Assembly (NCBI GenBank): GCA_002256025.1
Contig: NKIB01014993.1
Coordinates: 1-38,992, forward strand
DNA from: Asterionella formosa
Taxonomy: Eukaryota
Length of the DNA stretch: 38,992 nucleotides
Direction: 5' to 3'
The position numbers and the translations under genes are program-made. The notes under the pieces were generated by a model. That model was not told the DNA's origin. It did not search any database and saw only the letters and a program-made list of their open reading frames with translations. This document shows positions 7,917 to 29,897 of this stretch, in pieces (position 1 is the first letter of the stretch; each line of letters starts with the position of its first letter).

Positions 7917-9052
7917 TCTGGAAGGTGCGGTAATTGCGCCTTCTGCTCGCCTTTTTGGTTTCAGCCCGCCTGCAGGGCTTCGAAACCACAACAGACCGAC
8001 GGAGTCGGAGTCGGCTGACTTTCTAGCCAATGATTTTTTCTTAAGTAAATTCAAATTATAATCGTAACTACGAAAAGGTAATAACTGCTAAGCAAACTGA
8101 GCCAGCTCATAGTGAGCAAATTGTTTTAGCAATGAGCAAATGCTCTGAGCAATGATCAAATGCTAGGAGTGATGAGCAAAATTTTCTCGTAGTGAGCAAA
8201 AAATTTAGCGATTGAGAAAAAAATTCCGGATTGAGCAAAATCGATAAGGATAAAGAGAAAGCAAAAAGTCATGGGCAAAAATAAAACCTTGTAATTTTTA
8301 GGCTGAAACAATTTCGTCTTCATTTTTCTGAATTAGAGCAACAATTAAATACCAGTAGTAAATTCTATGTAATACCGGTCATTGAGCAATTTTAATTATA
8401 CCACCGCTATTTGCTTGAATGAGGGGCCAGGAGGTTGTAGGCCGAGTAATAGCAAAAGCCTGACCCTATGTATGTATTTACCAGTAGTATTTTGCGCCTA
8501 AAAACCCTTGTTAAAATCGCATTGACCATGTTGATATTATTCTGTTGGTTTACTCATTAATTTTGCAACCTCCCATGCCACTTGATTTATCAACATAGCC
8601 GCCATGATCAGCGCTTTCAGTAAATGCATCAAGCGGCACGGGAGCACACGATTTCGTTTACATACGACCTATTTAGTGTTGAGCATCGCAAATCCACGCC
8701 TACATGAGCAACCAAATCACGTGCAAAACCTCTTGAGCTTGACAGTAAGGTACCAGGTACCGGTACCTGGAGTTGAAACTGTACAGGAATTCCTCAAATA
8801 GGGTGCTATAGCAGTTACAACATAGCTACTTCAGCGATTTCTCAACCATCGCTGTGCAATGGACTTCGATTTCAAGGTCATCATGAATGAACTCAACCAT
8901 GACAAACAACGAGATCGGATGGTAAAATTATTTTTATGTCTTCATACAATTTGTTCATGCGTGGCTCCAACGGTTGGTCGTAATTGCAAAGCCCTGCAGG
9001 CGGGCTGAAACTAAAAAAGCGCGCAGTTTGCGCAATTATAGTACCTTCCAGA
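7917..9052. mobile_element. Non-autonomous DNA transposon with ~90-bp terminal inverted repeats
   Basis: Left end TCTGGAAGGTGCGGTAATTGCGCC...GTTTCAGCCCGCCTGCAGGGCTT. The reverse complement of 8960-9052 reads TCTGGAAGGTACTATAATTGCGCA...GTTTCAGCCCGCCTGCAGGGCTT. No convincing ORF inside and no TSD found. Confidence 0.8.
8088..8280 (+). repeat. Array of TGAGCAAA motifs with ~20-bp spacing inside the long-TIR element
   Basis: About 9 TGAGCAAA/TGATCAAA/TGAGAAAA-like motifs in under 200 bp. Confidence 0.7.
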
Positions 9053-19871: not shown

Positions 19872-20195
19872 TGTTGAAACCACTGTGTCTACAGCAGCAC
19901 CTCTGTGCAGATCAAGCAACAGATCCAATGTGCAATAGAGACAGGGCATTCAAATTGTTTGTAAGTTGGAGAATTAAAATAGAATGAGCCAATTTCCATG
20001 CTCATTAATCTACACTGGTAGTCGTGAAATTTCTGACATCTGTCTTGTTTTCGTTCTTGGGTACACTATCCTTTTTCTTCCTTCTTGCTTCAACTGTGAC
20101 CTACTCGTCATTGTGACCTAATAATTTTGTCTTACCACATGCTGTTTTTGTCTCACCATCTGACAACTTTGTCTTGCCATCTGTTAGTTTCAACA
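19872..20195 (-). repeat. 3' LTR (324 bp)
   Basis: Direct repeat of 29300-29624; by manual count ~19 substitutions and 1 indel. Confidence 0.95.
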
Positions 20196-23100
20196 CACTC
20201 CTGCAATCCTATGGCATAGTTGTAATTAATGGAGGGATTGATATTCATAATGGAGTTGCGCATCTTCCTGAAGCTTGAGCCCTGCAGTGGTTTTGTGAAA
20301 TAGTCAGCAATCATTTTTTCTGTAGGGCAATATCTCATAGAAACTTCCCCAGAAGCCACTCTGTCAGTTACAAAGAAATATCATATATTAATGTGTCTGT
20401 TCGGCAACTGCTTGATGTTCAGCCATTATTCTCCAGAAGAATTGCGCTCTGATTGTCTTGGTACACCACTGTGTCCTTAATGTTGTACCCCTGTGTCTCC
20501 ATGAAATATTGTGTCCACAGGATTTGCGGCATTACATTGTTCACACCAACTAATTCTCCCTCTGTTGAGCTTTTTGTGTTTATTTTCTGTCAAACAGATG
20601 ATCCATAGATCATTCCTTGACCAAGTGTCATAGCCCCACCAGTGTGGCTCTTCATGTCGGGGTGCACTGCAAATGATGCATCTACCCACCATTTGATGAT
20701 CTGAACATTTTCGGCTTCCAGAGTGAGAGGCATGTGTAGTGAACAAACCTTGCAGTTATCTCATTGTTCGACACAGCTTCTTGTAATCATCCACATCTGG
20801 TTTCTTTACTCTTGTGCATAGAAATGCTACGGCAGTCTGTAGATCTGGTCTGGCCCTCTTGCATAGAAATAGTAATTTTGCAGTGTTGTGGTGATATAGG
20901 TCAGCAAGGTGGTCTGGCAGTGTTTCTGCAGCTTTGTTCACGTCAAACAGGTGTGAAGCTGCAGGTGTAGGGGCTGTCCCATTCATATCCTCAGGTAGTT
21001 CTTCCAGCATTTCCTTTATGTAATCCACCATATTGAATTTGACCTTTCCTGTATCACTGAAGTCAATGTTCATACCTAGATACTCATGAACCTTTCCTCA
21101 TGTCTTAGTTAATGGTGCCTCTTTACCAAATAACCTTTGAGCTTCTGTATGATGTCATTTACCACCTCTGGGATGATATGGGATATTTTCAAATCATCTA
21201 CATGCAATAATATTGTGCGTTGTTTTCCATCCACCATTTTGTTCATTACACATCTGTCATATGGATTTGTGTTGCAACACCATTGATGAAGTTGTGAACT
21301 GAGCATCTTCCAGAACATTAGGGCGGCTTCAATGTGCCATACAGTGCATTTTTAAGCTCCACATATAGGAATGTTCTCCCTTTCTCAATCTGGATGTGCT
21401 GCCTGTACATTTTTGGGTCAATTCGGACCAACAACTCTGCCATTTTTCCTTCTAGCTTCATATGTACTGTATCTTCCATGTCATCCTGCATAAAAGCCCA
21501 GGAATGTCGACTGTTGCTACATCACATCCTTTTTTTGCATCTATGACACAGGATAACATTACTGATTTGATGGCCACTGTTGGTGAACTAGCCTCCTCTT
21601 TTGTAGTAGTTGCTCGTTGTTTGCGTCTATTGGCGCACCCTCTTCCTTTAATTGTTCCGTTTCTTTTCTGTTTAAGAAACATGAGATACTGTAATGCTTC
21701 CTTGCGCTGTTCTGGGGACAATTGGGCAGCAGTTTTGGGTTCGAGCACTTCACAATCTTGAAGTTGATGCAATTATTTCATTATTGTGTTGACTCCAGCA
21801 TCTCCAAAGAGCTTAAGACCTTTTGTAATACTGTGCTGCGTCATGGCAATGCTCTCAAGAGTACAATGCAAATGCCCATAGTCTCGAGTTTTTCGAGCCC
21901 CACAGATTGTATTGACTGGTTTGCCTGCCGTATCTCTTGTCCATTTGAGTTTCAATGTTGTCCTCATCAGTTGTGTTGTCCTCATTTTCTGTTTGGACTT
22001 CTACATCGACCATATCAGCCAGATCAACTTCTTCATGATCTTCATTTTGGTTGGTTATGATGTTTTCATCTTCATTTTCGCTTTTGTCTGCATTCTCGGT
22101 TTGAGTGTCAGTTTGACTTTCATTTTCATTTTGGTTGATTACATCATTGCCATTGATTGCGATGTTTTCATCTGCATTCTCGGTTTGACTCTCAGTTTGA
22201 CTTTCATTTTCATTTTGGTTGATTATATCATTGCCGTCAACTACATTATTTTCGACATTATTTTCGTTCACTCCTGCAATCTCGTCAGACTCGGTATGAA
22301 TGGGATTGTTTCCAGCATGGGTTTCATCACCATTATTATAATCGTCATCATCAGTGCTATTGTCATCGTCATTGTCATCAGTGGGATGATATGATTCATC
22401 GTCATCATCTTCATCAGCCTCAACCCCGTCAGGGTTGGCAAAGGTGAGAGTGTGGTTGGATAAGCTACGTTGTGCAAGGACATGCACTCTGTCCACAACT
22501 TCCAAGGGCATAGGGAGGGCTGTCCAATGGTTTCGATTTAGGATCTTACCTGTACTGAGGCTAAAAAATAGGTGCCCACCTTGATGATTTGTAGAGCAAG
22601 AGCACTGGTTGTGCGAGGAGTCATGCTGTTATCATGGGTCTCACGTGTCTGCACATATGTGCCAAACTCAATGCAACAGTGTTGTGCATAATCAATGGTA
22701 GATCCCACAATTATGGTGCGTGGGCTCAGTGTATCAGATATTCCCCCAGCGGTAGGAAAGGTGTTGAGCCAAAACACAGAGTGATATGTCAACTCAATTA
22801 TGATACGTGTTGGGATGCGTTGAAATGGCAGCATTGTGTAGACACTTCGGACCCTCTCTTTTGGAGTTCAGATGTGACGTTCAATCTCTGGCACATCTTC
22901 ATCATTGGAAGCAGTATTGAGCGTGATTCCTAATGTAGCAATGTAGCAATGTCGCCTCGCAGTCCGTCATGAGTAGTGTTGTGATTTTGAATCCCCATTT
23001 TGAATACTGTTGGTATACATGTTTTATTGCAGCTAGTATGGTACCATGTTGTTGGTTTTGAAGCAACTCAGCTGTCCTGAACTTGATATTCCTTGATATT

Positions 23101-23420
23101 GTGACCAGAAATGGGAGTTTATTAACAAACATGATGTCACCAGCAATGGTCACTTGACGATACCAATTCAATATAGAGCTGGGCACATATGACTGTTGTG
23201 TGGATACTGGAATTGGTTTCTGTTGAACAGTCTTTCCTTTCAAGGATCCAATATCTGGTCCAAAGATGTGCTCTGCGGCCAGGATATCATCCTTGGTAAT
23301 AGGACAGTTGGGCAACAAATTCTTTTCAAGGATCTTGATATATGCTCGGGTGCTTGGTCGTCCAATTATTTTCTGTATCTTATGAGCTAATACAGCTTTA
23401 GAGTAGTCTTGCTGAGAATA
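20153..23420 (-). pseudogene. Copia pol (integrase, reverse transcriptase, RNase H) with many stops and frameshifts
   Basis: IGRPS, GDIMFVNKLPFLVTISR, FLKQKRNGTIKGRGC, SSPTVA, VDDLKISH, LLFLCKRARPDLQTAVAFLCTRV and ADYFTKPLQG. Includes an 84-bp-period Asn/Glu-rich duplication at ~22087-22235. Confidence 0.9.
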
Positions 23421-23783
23421 TACTGCAGTGGGACAGTAATTCATCATAGTTTTAGGATGGTATGATCATAAAATTGAAAAAGAATAGTCAGAGTAGTATG
23501 TGAGCAATAAAACACCATATGTTCACGACTGTTGCTACTGCAGTGAGACAGTAAATCATCATGGTTTTAGGATTGTACGATCGTAAAATTGAAAGAGAGT
23601 AGTAGGAGTAGTAAGCAATCAACAGAACACCACATGTTCATGACTGTTGCTACTGCAGTGGGACAGTAAATCATCATAGTTTTAGGATTATATGATCATA
23701 AAATTGAAAGAGAGTAGTCGGAGTAGTAAGCGAGCAACAGAACACCATATGTTCATGACTGCTGCTACTGCAGCGGGACAGTA
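23421..23783 (+). repeat. 115-bp tandem repeat, 3 full units plus a partial unit
   Basis: Units begin TACTGCAG at 23421, 23536, 23651 and 23766. Confidence 0.9.
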
Positions 23784-24035
23784 TATTGTCATATTTTTAC
23801 GCTTGTATAATCGTATAATTGAAAACATGATATGCTATTACTTAAACTCGGTTCTGATTTTGTATCATATGATAATGTAAATAGCACTGTTGGTTTTATG
23901 GTATCATATCTAGACAGCGTAAAATATTATATGTAGGTGGCTGATGATTCATTTCATTGTAGCTTGCAACACTTGATTTTAAGATCATCGAACTTTAAGG
24001 AAGAGAACGACAACAGTTATCTAGTAGTACAAGCA

Positions 24036-26962: not shown

Positions 26963-27684
26963 TTGGAAAGCAAGTTGTCAAAGGGACAGAAGACTATTAT
27001 GTAAAACAGTGATGGAAGGGAATCGCCGAGCTTCTTGCGGCGCTTGTGGAGGTGCAGCTGGTGTGATGGTAAGCGAGTGTAGTAATTGTTGAACAGCGCA
27101 CAGCAGTGTAATATGCATGTTCCGCCAGTGTAATATTTGCACAATACACATGCCGGCATAAATACAGCTATAACCAAGAAAAACGACATGACAATGAATG
27201 TGATGGCTGGTTGTTGAGGATACCGGTATGTGATGTGCATCAATCCATATCACAAATCATATTATAGTGATGTACATATCAACGCATCAGTAAACTTAGA
27301 TCCTATCCACTGTATAATACTATCATATTAACTGTTAGCTTTCACTGTATACATTAAAAGTCGAATTTATTTATTAAGTAACATAGTTTTTTTCTTCTTC
27401 TGTGATGTATTGATAACACTTGCGTACATATTTTATCGTATTTTATTGTCATTGTATTATTTTAACATGATCATATTTTGATCAAAATTATATCATAAAC
27501 ATTTTAAGAAATCATCATAGTTCTATGATCAATGCATCATAGCTATGTGATATACTTTTTTCAATATTGCGTATCATACTTTGGTGATGTACGCATTGAT
27601 TGGAAGAATAGTATTCTGCATTGTACTACGGAGTATGATATTATAACACGCACTTTAGTAGCTAAGTCACTCCTGTAATGTACA

Positions 27685-28160: not shown

Positions 28161-28851
28161 GAAACGAGCAACATGAAAAAGAAATTGTAATCAGAATCAT
28201 TCTATAACTATAGCTATGTAGACAGTAGTCTGTTACATTTTCGTATCTCCTTCTATGCTGAATCTCAATAGTAGATGTAGTATCATGTGAGAATTGAAAA
28301 TGTCAACAAGAACAAGTAGAATGTGTTTGTTTATGGGTTGATTGGCGAAATTGTAATGCTTGTGGTCGACGAATCGGATAAACGGATTCACAATGTGCGC
28401 TATGTGCGGAACCATTACGAGTTCGAATGATTTCTTCTCTCCTGTAAACTCTTAATTGAATGATTATGAACAAAGGTTCACTGCACATGATGATTACTCG
28501 AAGATATAGTGATCACATGACCAACAATTGAAGACGTCATTATTGCAAACAATCATTCCACTTGTCATTACTAGAATTTCGTTGTTGTTTCAAAAATTGG
28601 AGTGATGACAGATGGAAATGATGAGCCAAATTGCATTACTTCAGCTGGTACTTTATCCTACCAAGAAATTCGAATACAGGAATCTAGTAGAAACAATACA
28701 TATAATAATTAAACATGTGTAGTCAAAAGGGTTACTATTTAAATTTCAAGTGCATTTATCAAAATTATTAGAGGATATAACGAAAAATTATGATCAGATG
28801 ATACAATCTTATATTGCATAATGGAAATATGATAGTTTTTATTTGCAGATT

Positions 28852-29285
28852 GGAGTATAGAGTGTGAATGTTCTCTTTGAGATAAGCTGTCTGTTTGACA
28901 TGCTCATCTCCCAGATCCTATTTTTTGTCCGTGTTGCCCCTTCGGGTGGGTCTTTTGGCATGTCAATGGCAACCATTTCAATATTCTTGACCACCAGGCA
29001 AATGTTGCCGCCATTCTTGTATGTTCTTCCAACATAGCCGGAAATCTCTTTGGTAGTCTTTGCAAACAAATCTGATTGTCTTGCATCAGAACAATCATAT
29101 ATGTTCCCTTTAAGGTTGTTGCATTTGCCTTCAAATTTTGTAGGGATGTGTCGATTTGTGGACTTTGAGAACTGATATGATCCTTTCTTCTTTAGGTCTA
29201 TGTTCTTCTTTTTGTACTTTGTTATGCCTTCCCTGGCTTCAACCTTGATTCCTTCACCCTTTTTCATGATTCTATATCTCTGCAC
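28852..29285 (-). pseudogene. N-terminal part of Copia gag
   Basis: KFEGKCNNLKGNIYDCS..QSDLFAKTTKEISGYVGRTYKNGG, resembling diatom Copia gag N-termini; lies immediately after the 5' LTR. Confidence 0.85.
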
Positions 29286-29299
29286 TTCTATTTTAATTC

Positions 29300-29624
29300 T
29301 GTTGAAACCACTGTGTCTACAGCAGCACCTCTATGCTGATCAAGCAACAGATCCAGTGTGCAATAGAGACAGGGCGATCGAATTGTTTGTAAATTTGGAG
29401 AATTAAAATAGTATGAGCCAATTTCCATGCTCATTAATCTACACTGGTAGTTGTGAAATTTCTGACATGGGTCTTGTTTTTGTTATTGGGTACACATTCC
29501 TTTTTCTTCCTTCTTGCTTCAACTGTGACCCACTCGTCATCGTGACCTAATAATTTTGTCTTACCACATGCTGTTTTCGTCTCACCATCTGACAACTTTG
29601 TCTTGCCATCTGTTAGTTCCAACA
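29300..29624 (-). repeat. 5' LTR (325 bp)
   Basis: TGTTG...CAACA termini; direct repeat of 19872-20195. Confidence 0.95.
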
Positions 29625-29897
29625 AAAGGTGCTGTTGTTTCATGCCTTTTTAAGGAAATTCACCAATCAAACAAGCAAATTGTGATGATTTGCGCGTCAT
29701 GGCGGTTACATTGATACATATACACGCACAAATGCTAGACTACCGGTAGTACCTCGTGGTCCTCTACAAACGAAAAAACATATCGGTATGTTGAATTTTG
29801 TGATGATTGTACATTGTATTACCTACTTAATTCCAATTTTGCTTCTCGGTGCTGAGCGATTGCATTGCGCCTTGAACATTTTCATCATCTGTGGATC

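What the first reader, a model, noticed from the sequence alone, without database searches (positions are those of the whole stretch)
29286..29413. No tRNA PBS: the Copia element appears to self-prime
Seen: on the element's sense strand the 5' LTR is followed directly by GAATTAAAATAGAA (29299-29286), not a TGG tRNA-type PBS. The complement of this 14-mer lies inside the LTR ~100 nt upstream (13/14 match at 29400-29413; 14/14 in the other LTR at 19971-19984), just after a small AATGAGC/GCTCAT hairpin. Established: fission-yeast Tf1 (Ty3/Gypsy) primes by folding its RNA 5' end onto the PBS. Inference: the same mechanism in a Ty1/Copia element, predicting a transcription start near 29413. I recall a similar suggestion for a Phaeodactylum CoDi element, so this may not be entirely new, but it is unusual for Copia.
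Basis: partly seen in the sequence, partly recalled or inferred. Interest (0 to 1): 0.7.

Follow-up and report, generated by a model that had tools for sequence, protein, structure and literature searches.

The report
Self-priming Copia retrotransposons in diatoms
A dead copy of a Copia-type jumping gene, likely from a diatom, has no tRNA-binding site, and the 14 letters where copying must start pair with a stretch of its own terminal repeat, as they do in 26 sequence clusters of this lineage with different letters, so the lineage likely starts copying with the front end of its own RNA, a trick shown so far mainly in the fission-yeast element Tf1.

Summary
Observation confirmed. The 14 nt after the 5' LTR (29299-29286, minus strand) pair with 29413-29400 (13/14; 14/14 in the 3' LTR). 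Among 167 scored gag loci from this genome and metagenomes, 26 of 52 sequence clusters reach 14/14 with their own LTR, each with a different 14-mer; 1 of 2652 swapped pairs does. No fetched tRNA pairs beyond 7 contiguous bases, and all 12 exact genomic copies of the 14-mer lie in the element's LTRs or primer sites. Two covarying hairpins sit inside the loop. Best reading: Tf1-like self-priming with a 14-nt primer (0.85). Start site and cleavage are unmeasured; only RNA contigs were available. Self-priming is already predicted for plant TAR Copia (PMC6317226); I found no paper on diatom elements. This scan has reported the same feature on other DNA several times. New variant of a known kind.

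The parts
29300..29624 (-). 5' LTR (325 nt, TG...CA)
   Evidence: Direct repeat with 19872-20195, 305 of 325 columns identical; the repeat ends at 29300 in 3' and solo copies
29412..29416 (-). Initiator-like TCAH(+1)W; predicted transcription start at 29413
   Evidence: Motif from PMC4686930; it abuts the duplex in 22 of 26 clusters against 0.7% background; the start itself is inferred
29400..29413 (-). Predicted 14-nt self-primer (first 14 nt of the RNA); 13/14 in this LTR, one change at 29412
29304..29379 (-). Long U5 hairpin that ends a few bases before the LTR end; its apex (about 29350-29331) covaries across families
   Evidence: Predicted fold; apex helix 94% paired, 6 of 7 pairs with changes on both sides
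29286..29299 (-). Primer-binding site, 14 nt, directly after the LTR; not tRNA-type
28842..29267 (-). Start of gag (ATG 18 nt after the PBS); broken off near 28880
   Evidence: tblastn with full-length relatives matches 29177-28887; 79 matches in the genome
23421..28841 (.). About 5.4 kb with no match to the polyprotein (insertion or replacement of the rest of gag and protease); includes a 115-nt tandem repeat at 23421-23824
   Evidence: Gap in the tblastn matches; repeat family D1
22416..23420 (-). Integrase region, frameshifted
   Evidence: tblastn, 55-73% identity to full-length relatives
20231..21898 (-). RT and RNase H, broken by stops and frameshifts; lies after the integrase (Copia order)
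   Evidence: (most relatives carry PF07727 RVT_2)
20196..20209 (-). Purine-rich stretch before the 3' LTR (probable PPT)
   Evidence: Sequence; the same stretch precedes related 3' LTRs
19872..20195 (-). 3' LTR (324 nt); holds the intact 14/14 copy of the self-primer at 19984-19971

Best explanation
This is a dead Ty1/Copia element whose 14-nt primer site pairs with a stretch of its own LTR, and its lineage likely primes reverse transcription with the first 14 bases of its own RNA. Shown by sequence: the pairing; its fixed place at the LTR end; its covariation across 26 clusters; the initiator-like motif at its outer edge; two covarying hairpins inside the loop. Inferred steps: (1) transcription starts at 29413; (2) the RNA's first 14 nt fold onto the PBS and close a junction with a short hairpin and a long U5 hairpin; (3) the RNA is cut after nt 14, probably by the element's own RNase H as in Tf1, which frees a 3'-OH opposite the LTR's terminal A; (4) plus-strand synthesis copies the primer, so the PBS is rewritten from the LTR each cycle. 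Step 4 would explain why both sides drift together with strict Watson-Crick pairs.
For: Minus-strand priming defines the LTR end (established), so the primer's 3' end must pair at PBS nt 1. The PBS differs in all 26 clusters (mean 7.1 of 14 letters, 91% A+T), and only the element's own LTR tracks it: 26 of 52 cluster representatives reach 14/14, against 1 of 2652 swapped pairs. All 14 pairs show changes on both sides in 22 aligned families. Pairing stops sharply: 7, 2 and 9 of 26 pair at PBS nt 15, 16 and 17. That edge is +1 of TCAH(+1)W in 22 of 26, background 0.7%. No cluster's best member sits at 13/14, so there is no family-level G-U in this helix, while the two inner hairpins accept G-U. 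In family G one A-T to C-G change appears on both sides together (about 18 copies against 7, none discordant; one event). No tRNA match: longest run 7 for this family, 5-8 for seven families. The same tRNA set does find a half-tRNA-Met site (9 nt, tRNA positions 30-38) in another Copia clade of this genome. Elements with the pairing fall in one RT clade (100/100).
Against: Neither the start site nor the cleavage was measured. TCAH(+1)W is a short motif, proposed from a few genes and present in 68% of Phaeodactylum upstream windows; families F and G have CCA instead. A TATA-like motif lies upstream in only 3 of 26. Tf1's duplex downstream of the PBS has no counterpart (7.04 own, 7.04 swapped). 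The cut 14-mer duplex is weak (mean -11 kcal/mol). This copy's leader folds little better than shuffles (z -1.3) and does not form the short hairpin. The 26/26 pair counts are partly circular, because representatives were the best-scoring cluster members. The tRNA set is incomplete (63 of 3876 candidates scored). Related families are not independent events.
Confidence: 0.85

Rival explanations
1. The primer is element-encoded but acts in trans: the 5' end of the second packaged RNA, or a short RNA made from an LTR, pairs with the PBS.
For: It predicts the same covariation and the same edge. LTR sequence of family G is present in RNA-library contigs joined to many different flanks.
Against: The loop length is tightly kept (90-104 nt in 22 clusters, 120-130 in 4). 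The in-cis duplex forms with 12-14 of 14 pairs in all 26 predicted folds. Two covarying hairpins bring the ends together.
Confidence: 0.07
2. The copy of the 14-mer in the 3' LTR is the RNA's 3' end and primes directly, without cleavage.
For: The 3' LTR carries the same 14-mer (14/14). Sequence alone cannot tell which copy pairs.
Against: The initiator-like motif sits at the 5' edge of the 14-mer.
Confidence: 0.03
3. The duplex regulates translation or packaging (it closes 18 nt before the gag ATG), and priming uses a host RNA such as a tRNA half.
For: Half-tRNA priming exists in Copia (PMC6317226) and in another clade of this genome. The tRNA set is incomplete.
Against: 26 different AT-rich PBS sequences cannot all match host tRNAs. 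The exact 14-mer complement occurs in the assembly only in element LTR or PBS sites (12 of 12). The duplex ends exactly at the LTR boundary.
Confidence: 0.04
4. A chance or low-complexity inverted repeat in AT-rich DNA.
For: The 14-mers are 91% A+T.
Against: Swapped pairs of equally AT-rich families reach 13/14 or better in 8 of 2652 cases. Sliding the partners by 1-3 columns drops pairing from 96% to 36-46%.
Confidence: 0.01

Closest known systems
Tf1/Tf2 of Schizosaccharomyces pombe and the Tf1/sushi group (Ty3/Gypsy), including Tj1 and Tcn1
   Same: PBS directly after the 5' LTR and complementary to a site inside the LTR taken as the RNA's 5' end; no tRNA site; a U5 stem beside the PBS. In Tf1 the first 11 bases pair and RNase H cuts between bases 11 and 12 (passages of PMC7175516; 10.1101/2022.12.06.519325; PMC4600332).
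   Different: Copia domain order and RVT_2-type RT, so not a member. The primer is 14-15 nt, not 11. There is no duplex downstream of the PBS; a short hairpin follows the primer instead. Nothing is shown by experiment here.
Plant Ty1/Copia lineage TAR (Houba, Osr-1)
   Same: Copia elements predicted to self-prime from a complement of at least 10 bp between the PBS position and the 5' LTR (passages of PMC6317226).
   Different: Plant lineage; prediction only in the passages seen. Its relation to this clade was not tested (no TAR sequences in hand), so independent origin is an inference.
CoDi elements of diatoms (lineages CoDiI and CoDiII; PMC2806351)
   Same: Copia order, 5-nt target duplication, named homologues from diatoms. 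A long-branch RT clade apart from the genome's other Copia fits the description of CoDiII as the most distant lineage.
   Different: That paper's main text has no occurrence of priming, tRNA, Tf1 or self; its supplements could not be read. No CoDi reference sequence was available, so the subgroup is unassigned.
Fungal GalEa Copia elements with a conserved hairpin site (PMC5445492)
   Same: Copia elements with no tRNA PBS (passages).
   Different: They have a palindrome and hairpin after the LTR, and the authors found no complement in the LTR. That design resembles a different clade in this genome (L275, L283, L286), not this element.

Membership tests
Ty1/Copia LTR retrotransposon | LTRs with TG...CA ends and a target-site duplication | tested here: met
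   (flanks match 4 of 5)
Ty1/Copia LTR retrotransposon | Order gag-protease-integrase-RT-RNase H | tested here: met
   Collinear tblastn with full-length relatives. In family F the zinc knuckle (378-393) precedes RVT_2 (1158-1291), with protease and integrase motifs read by eye between them.
Ty1/Copia LTR retrotransposon | RT of the RVT_2 (PF07727) type | tested here: met
   Close relatives at 64-79% identity mostly carry PF07727. The window's own broken pieces gave no relevant Pfam hit.
CoDi (diatom Copia), subgroup CoDiI or CoDiII | RT clusters with reference CoDi elements | not testable with these tools
   No reference CoDi sequences in hand; only named diatom homologues and tree shape
Tf1/sushi group | Ty3/Gypsy chromovirus, RT before integrase | tested here: not met
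   Copia order
Tf1-type self-priming (mechanism) | PBS abuts the LTR and is complementary to an LTR-internal site, not to a tRNA | tested here: met
Tf1-type self-priming (mechanism) | The complementary site is the 5' end of the transcript | tested here: inconclusive
   Initiator-like motif at the edge in 22 of 26; only RNA contigs were available, which cannot place a start
Tf1-type self-priming (mechanism) | U5 stem next to the PBS | tested here: met
   Predicted in most of 26 folds; loop z below -1 in 20 of 26; apex covaries. Prediction, not probing.
Tf1-type self-priming (mechanism) | Third duplex between PBS-downstream sequence and the LTR ('pretzel') | tested here: not met
   Mean longest run 7.04 own, 7.04 swapped
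Tf1-type self-priming (mechanism) | RNase H cleavage releases the primer | not testable with these tools
   Needs a bench test
tRNA-primed or half-tRNA-primed Copia | PBS complementary to a tRNA 3' end (TGG) or an internal tRNA half | tested here: not met
   No TGG; longest run 5-8 nt against 71 tRNA sequences for seven families; the set is incomplete

The most novel reading that the evidence does not exclude
A whole diatom Copia clade invented self-priming independently of Tf1 and of plant TAR elements, with its own design. The host initiator sets a 14-nt primer, a three-way RNA junction without Tf1's third duplex presents it for cleavage by a Copia RNase H, and the PBS is rewritten from the primer each cycle, so every family carries a private, freely drifting primer key. 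One diatom genome would then hold three priming strategies: self-primer, half-tRNA-Met, and a GalEa-like palindromic hairpin.
Probability: 0.5. Interest if true: 0.68.

Novelty: new variant of a known kind. Interest (0 to 1): 0.52.

Why it matters
In the passages I read, self-priming is demonstrated by experiment for Tf1 and otherwise inferred, including for plant TAR Copia. A Copia clade with dozens of natural compensatory variants, a predicted start at single-base resolution and young multi-copy families gives a direct test of whether a Copia RNase H can cut an RNA duplex to make its own primer, and of how often LTR elements gave up tRNA primers. It also means that annotation tools which require a tRNA PBS will misjudge these elements.

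Tried and rejected
RNA evidence for the start: 13 runs on record as RNA held family G, all as contigs. In the 4 runs laid, summed depth was far higher downstream of the predicted start than upstream in 3 (X2, X7, X10) and flat in X1. Contigs cannot show a start, no DNA run was laid as control, and the stretch was family G, not this family. Not counted as evidence. Viral contig scan: 38 pattern hits, no relative. Pfam on 9 window fragments: no relevant family. Rfam on 29200-29700: nothing. No tRNA gene in the window. The first tRNA run gave artefacts from wrap-around introns and was redone. Conserved TATA box: rejected (3 of 26). Conserved U3 hairpin: rejected. Third 'pretzel' duplex: rejected. 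A 10-nt tRNA-Ile match in L274 lies in repetitive sequence without an LTR pair and was not counted. Cluster look-up of 10 proteins gave no organism names. Only 3 metagenome loci held a second LTR: two end at the called boundary by eye and one is a tandem or duplicated copy. Literature: no paper in the library links self-priming to diatom elements (searches); most subscription journals are not searched.

Full report
Observation. The element lies on the minus strand between two LTRs, 29624-29300 and 20195-19872. They are identical at 305 of 325 columns (K2P 0.061), end in TG...CA and are flanked by CCTTT/CCTTG. The 14 nt after the 5' LTR (29299-29286) contain no TGG. Their complement lies at 29413-29400 (13/14, mismatch at 29412) and at 19984-19971 (14/14). 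The LTR's terminal A adds a 15th pair, with a 98-nt loop. Three close copies (L032, L034, L043) have 15 of 15 pairs, one more (L033) has a change in the PBS, so the mismatch is decay of this copy.

What the element is. Full-length relatives match in the order gag start (29177-28887), integrase (23420-22416), RT-RNase H (21898-20231), with frameshifts and about 5.4 kb of non-matching DNA after the gag start. This copy is dead. Most close RT relatives carry RVT_2, and a long open frame of a related family shows the zinc knuckle before RVT_2. The only named homologues are from diatoms, Fragilaria crotonensis and Attheya, so the host is inferred to be a diatom. In an RT tree of 23 rows, 11 rows form one clade (100/100) on a long branch, apart from 12 other Copia rows of this genome; the tool warns that long branches meet. 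The clade holds family G, six metagenome loci with the pairing and four close protein relatives of the window's RT.

Covariation. I collected gag-start loci from this genome (110 loci) and from metagenomes (79 loci). A blind script took every CAACA-like end 60-450 nt before a conserved gag motif and scored the next 14 nt against the 150 nt lying 50-200 upstream. Of 189 loci, 167 could be scored; 37 of 67 metagenome loci and 60 of 100 own loci reached 13/14 or better. They fell into 52 clusters. The best member reached 14/14 in 26 clusters, 13/14 in none and 12 or less in 26. Swapping LTRs between clusters gave 13/14 or better in 8 of 2652 pairs and 14/14 in 1. Representatives were the best members, so the comparison leans somewhat towards self. 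The 26 primer sites are all different, by 7.1 of 14 letters on average. In an alignment of 22 of them (the 90-104-nt loop class), all 14 pairs show changes on both sides, and sliding the partners drops pairing of the whole structure from 96% to 36-46%.

The misses. I read the 21 metagenome loci under 12/14 by eye. Three have the full pairing but were too short for the rule (L175, L181, L218), and one has 13/14 outside the window (L225). Four have imperfect pairs in the right place (L212, L217, L245, L248). Five have deletions (L186, L222, L226-L228). Eight cannot be judged (L188, L196, L202, L208, L210, L211, L236, L237). I saw no LTR end followed by TGG among them. The low-scoring own loci are truncated, rearranged or lack an LTR, by eye.

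Start site. Pairing stops after 14 nt (7, 2 and 9 of 26 pair at nt 15, 16 and 17), and CA lies directly before the duplex at a fixed offset in 24 of 26. A passage of PMC4686930 proposes TCAH(+1)W as the diatom initiator, building on mapped starts CAY(+1)A; the motif occurs in 68% of 80-nt upstream windows, so it is weak alone. Here H falls on the partner of PBS nt 14 in 20 clusters and of nt 15 in 2, 22 of 26 in all, against 0.7% of other LTR positions. In the window TCA is 29416-29414 and +1 is 29413. This makes the primer the RNA's first 14 bases, fully paired. It is an inference. The only RNA data were contigs and are not counted.

tRNA test. 71 distinct tRNA sequences (33 anticodons, nuclear and organellar) were taken from fetched loci; the genome search scored only 63 of 3876 candidates, so the set is incomplete. 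The longest complement to this PBS is 7 nt, and 5-8 nt for seven families. All 12 exact copies of the 14-mer complement in the assembly are LTR or PBS sites. As a control, of 20 loci from other Copia clades 4 showed an LTR pair that reaches the LTR's inner end. One (L276) has a site with a 9-nt complement to tRNA-Met positions 30-38, the half-tRNA type; one (L288) has a similar-looking site without such a match; two (L275, L283) have a palindrome with neither tRNA nor LTR complement.

Structure. The central duplex forms with 12-14 of 14 pairs in all 26 predicted leaders, and the loop alone folds better than shuffles (mean z -1.6; below -1 in 20 of 26). Two inner helices covary: a short hairpin after the primer (87% paired) and the apex of a long U5 hairpin (94% paired). 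None of 500 shuffles reached their covariation score, though 18 reached the count of pairs with double changes; the helices came from the same alignment and related sequences can inflate such scores. Both accept G-U, whereas no family fixes a G-U in the central duplex. That fits a PBS rewritten by templated synthesis (inference). This copy forms the long hairpin (about 29379-29304) but not the short one, and its overall z is only -1.3.

Mechanism. Most likely the RNA starts at 29413, its first 14 nt pair with the PBS, a cut after nt 14 frees a 3'-OH, and RT copies from the LTR's terminal A. The cut by RNase H is taken over from Tf1 (11-nt primer, cut between bases 11 and 12; PMC7175516 passage) and is less certain (about 0.65) than self-priming as such (0.85). 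Rivals are priming in trans by element RNA (0.07), a regulatory duplex with a host primer (0.04), priming by the RNA's 3' end (0.03) and chance (0.01).

Known or new. Papers were seen as passages only: PMC5445492, PMC2806351 (supplements unavailable, and its element table could hold PBS notes), PMC6317226, PMC3601003, 10.1101/2022.12.06.519325, PMC7175516, PMC4686930, PMC3599244, PMC2206039 (irrelevant), PMC4600332. PMC6317226 states that self-priming was proposed for the Copia families Houba and Osr-1 and predicts it for the TAR lineage, so a self-priming Copia is not unprecedented. Earlier notes of this scan report the same feature in this and other genomes; I saw them after my own tests and do not count them as support.

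Verdict. A real, lineage-wide signature of self-priming in a diatom-type Copia clade. It works like Tf1 but is not a member of that group. New variant of a known kind; interest 0.52.

Noticed in passing
L283 (G000:C241), L286 (G000:C4696), L275 (G000:C971), directly after the 5' LTR: Other Copia families in this genome have a short palindrome right after the LTR (CGCTTTAAAGCG; GCTTGCAAGC), followed by GGAT, with no tRNA or LTR complement. This resembles the conserved hairpin site of fungal GalEa elements and may be a third priming mode.
   Followed up: partly
L276 (G000:C14326) and L288 (G000:C15389), after the 5' LTR: GGTTA-type sites; L276 has a 9-nt complement to tRNA-Met positions 30-38 (half-tRNA type), L288 has no such match in my tRNA set.
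   Followed up: partly
L140, L152 and other family G loci (L134-L169): A subfamily carries one compensatory A-T to C-G change in both the LTR site and the PBS, with no discordant copy.
   Followed up: yes
L063, L067, L099 (family F), just upstream of the predicted start: A 10-nt partial copy of the PBS lies 6 nt before the primer sequence and could pair with it in the 3' LTR copy of the RNA; not general across families.
   Followed up: partly
window 23421-23824: Tandem repeat with a 115-nt period at the edge of the inserted DNA, with a related 33-nt piece at 27509.
   Followed up: no
window 22082-22249: Two 84-nt tandem copies in the acidic linker between integrase and RT.
   Followed up: no
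window 7917-8004 and 8965-9052: 88-nt inverted repeat, 80% complementary, 960 nt apart; possibly a small DNA transposon.
   Followed up: no
L145:923 and 1188 (family G LTR ends): Contigs from RNA libraries join both LTR ends to many different flanks, which confirms the LTR limits and shows many insertion sites.
   Followed up: partly
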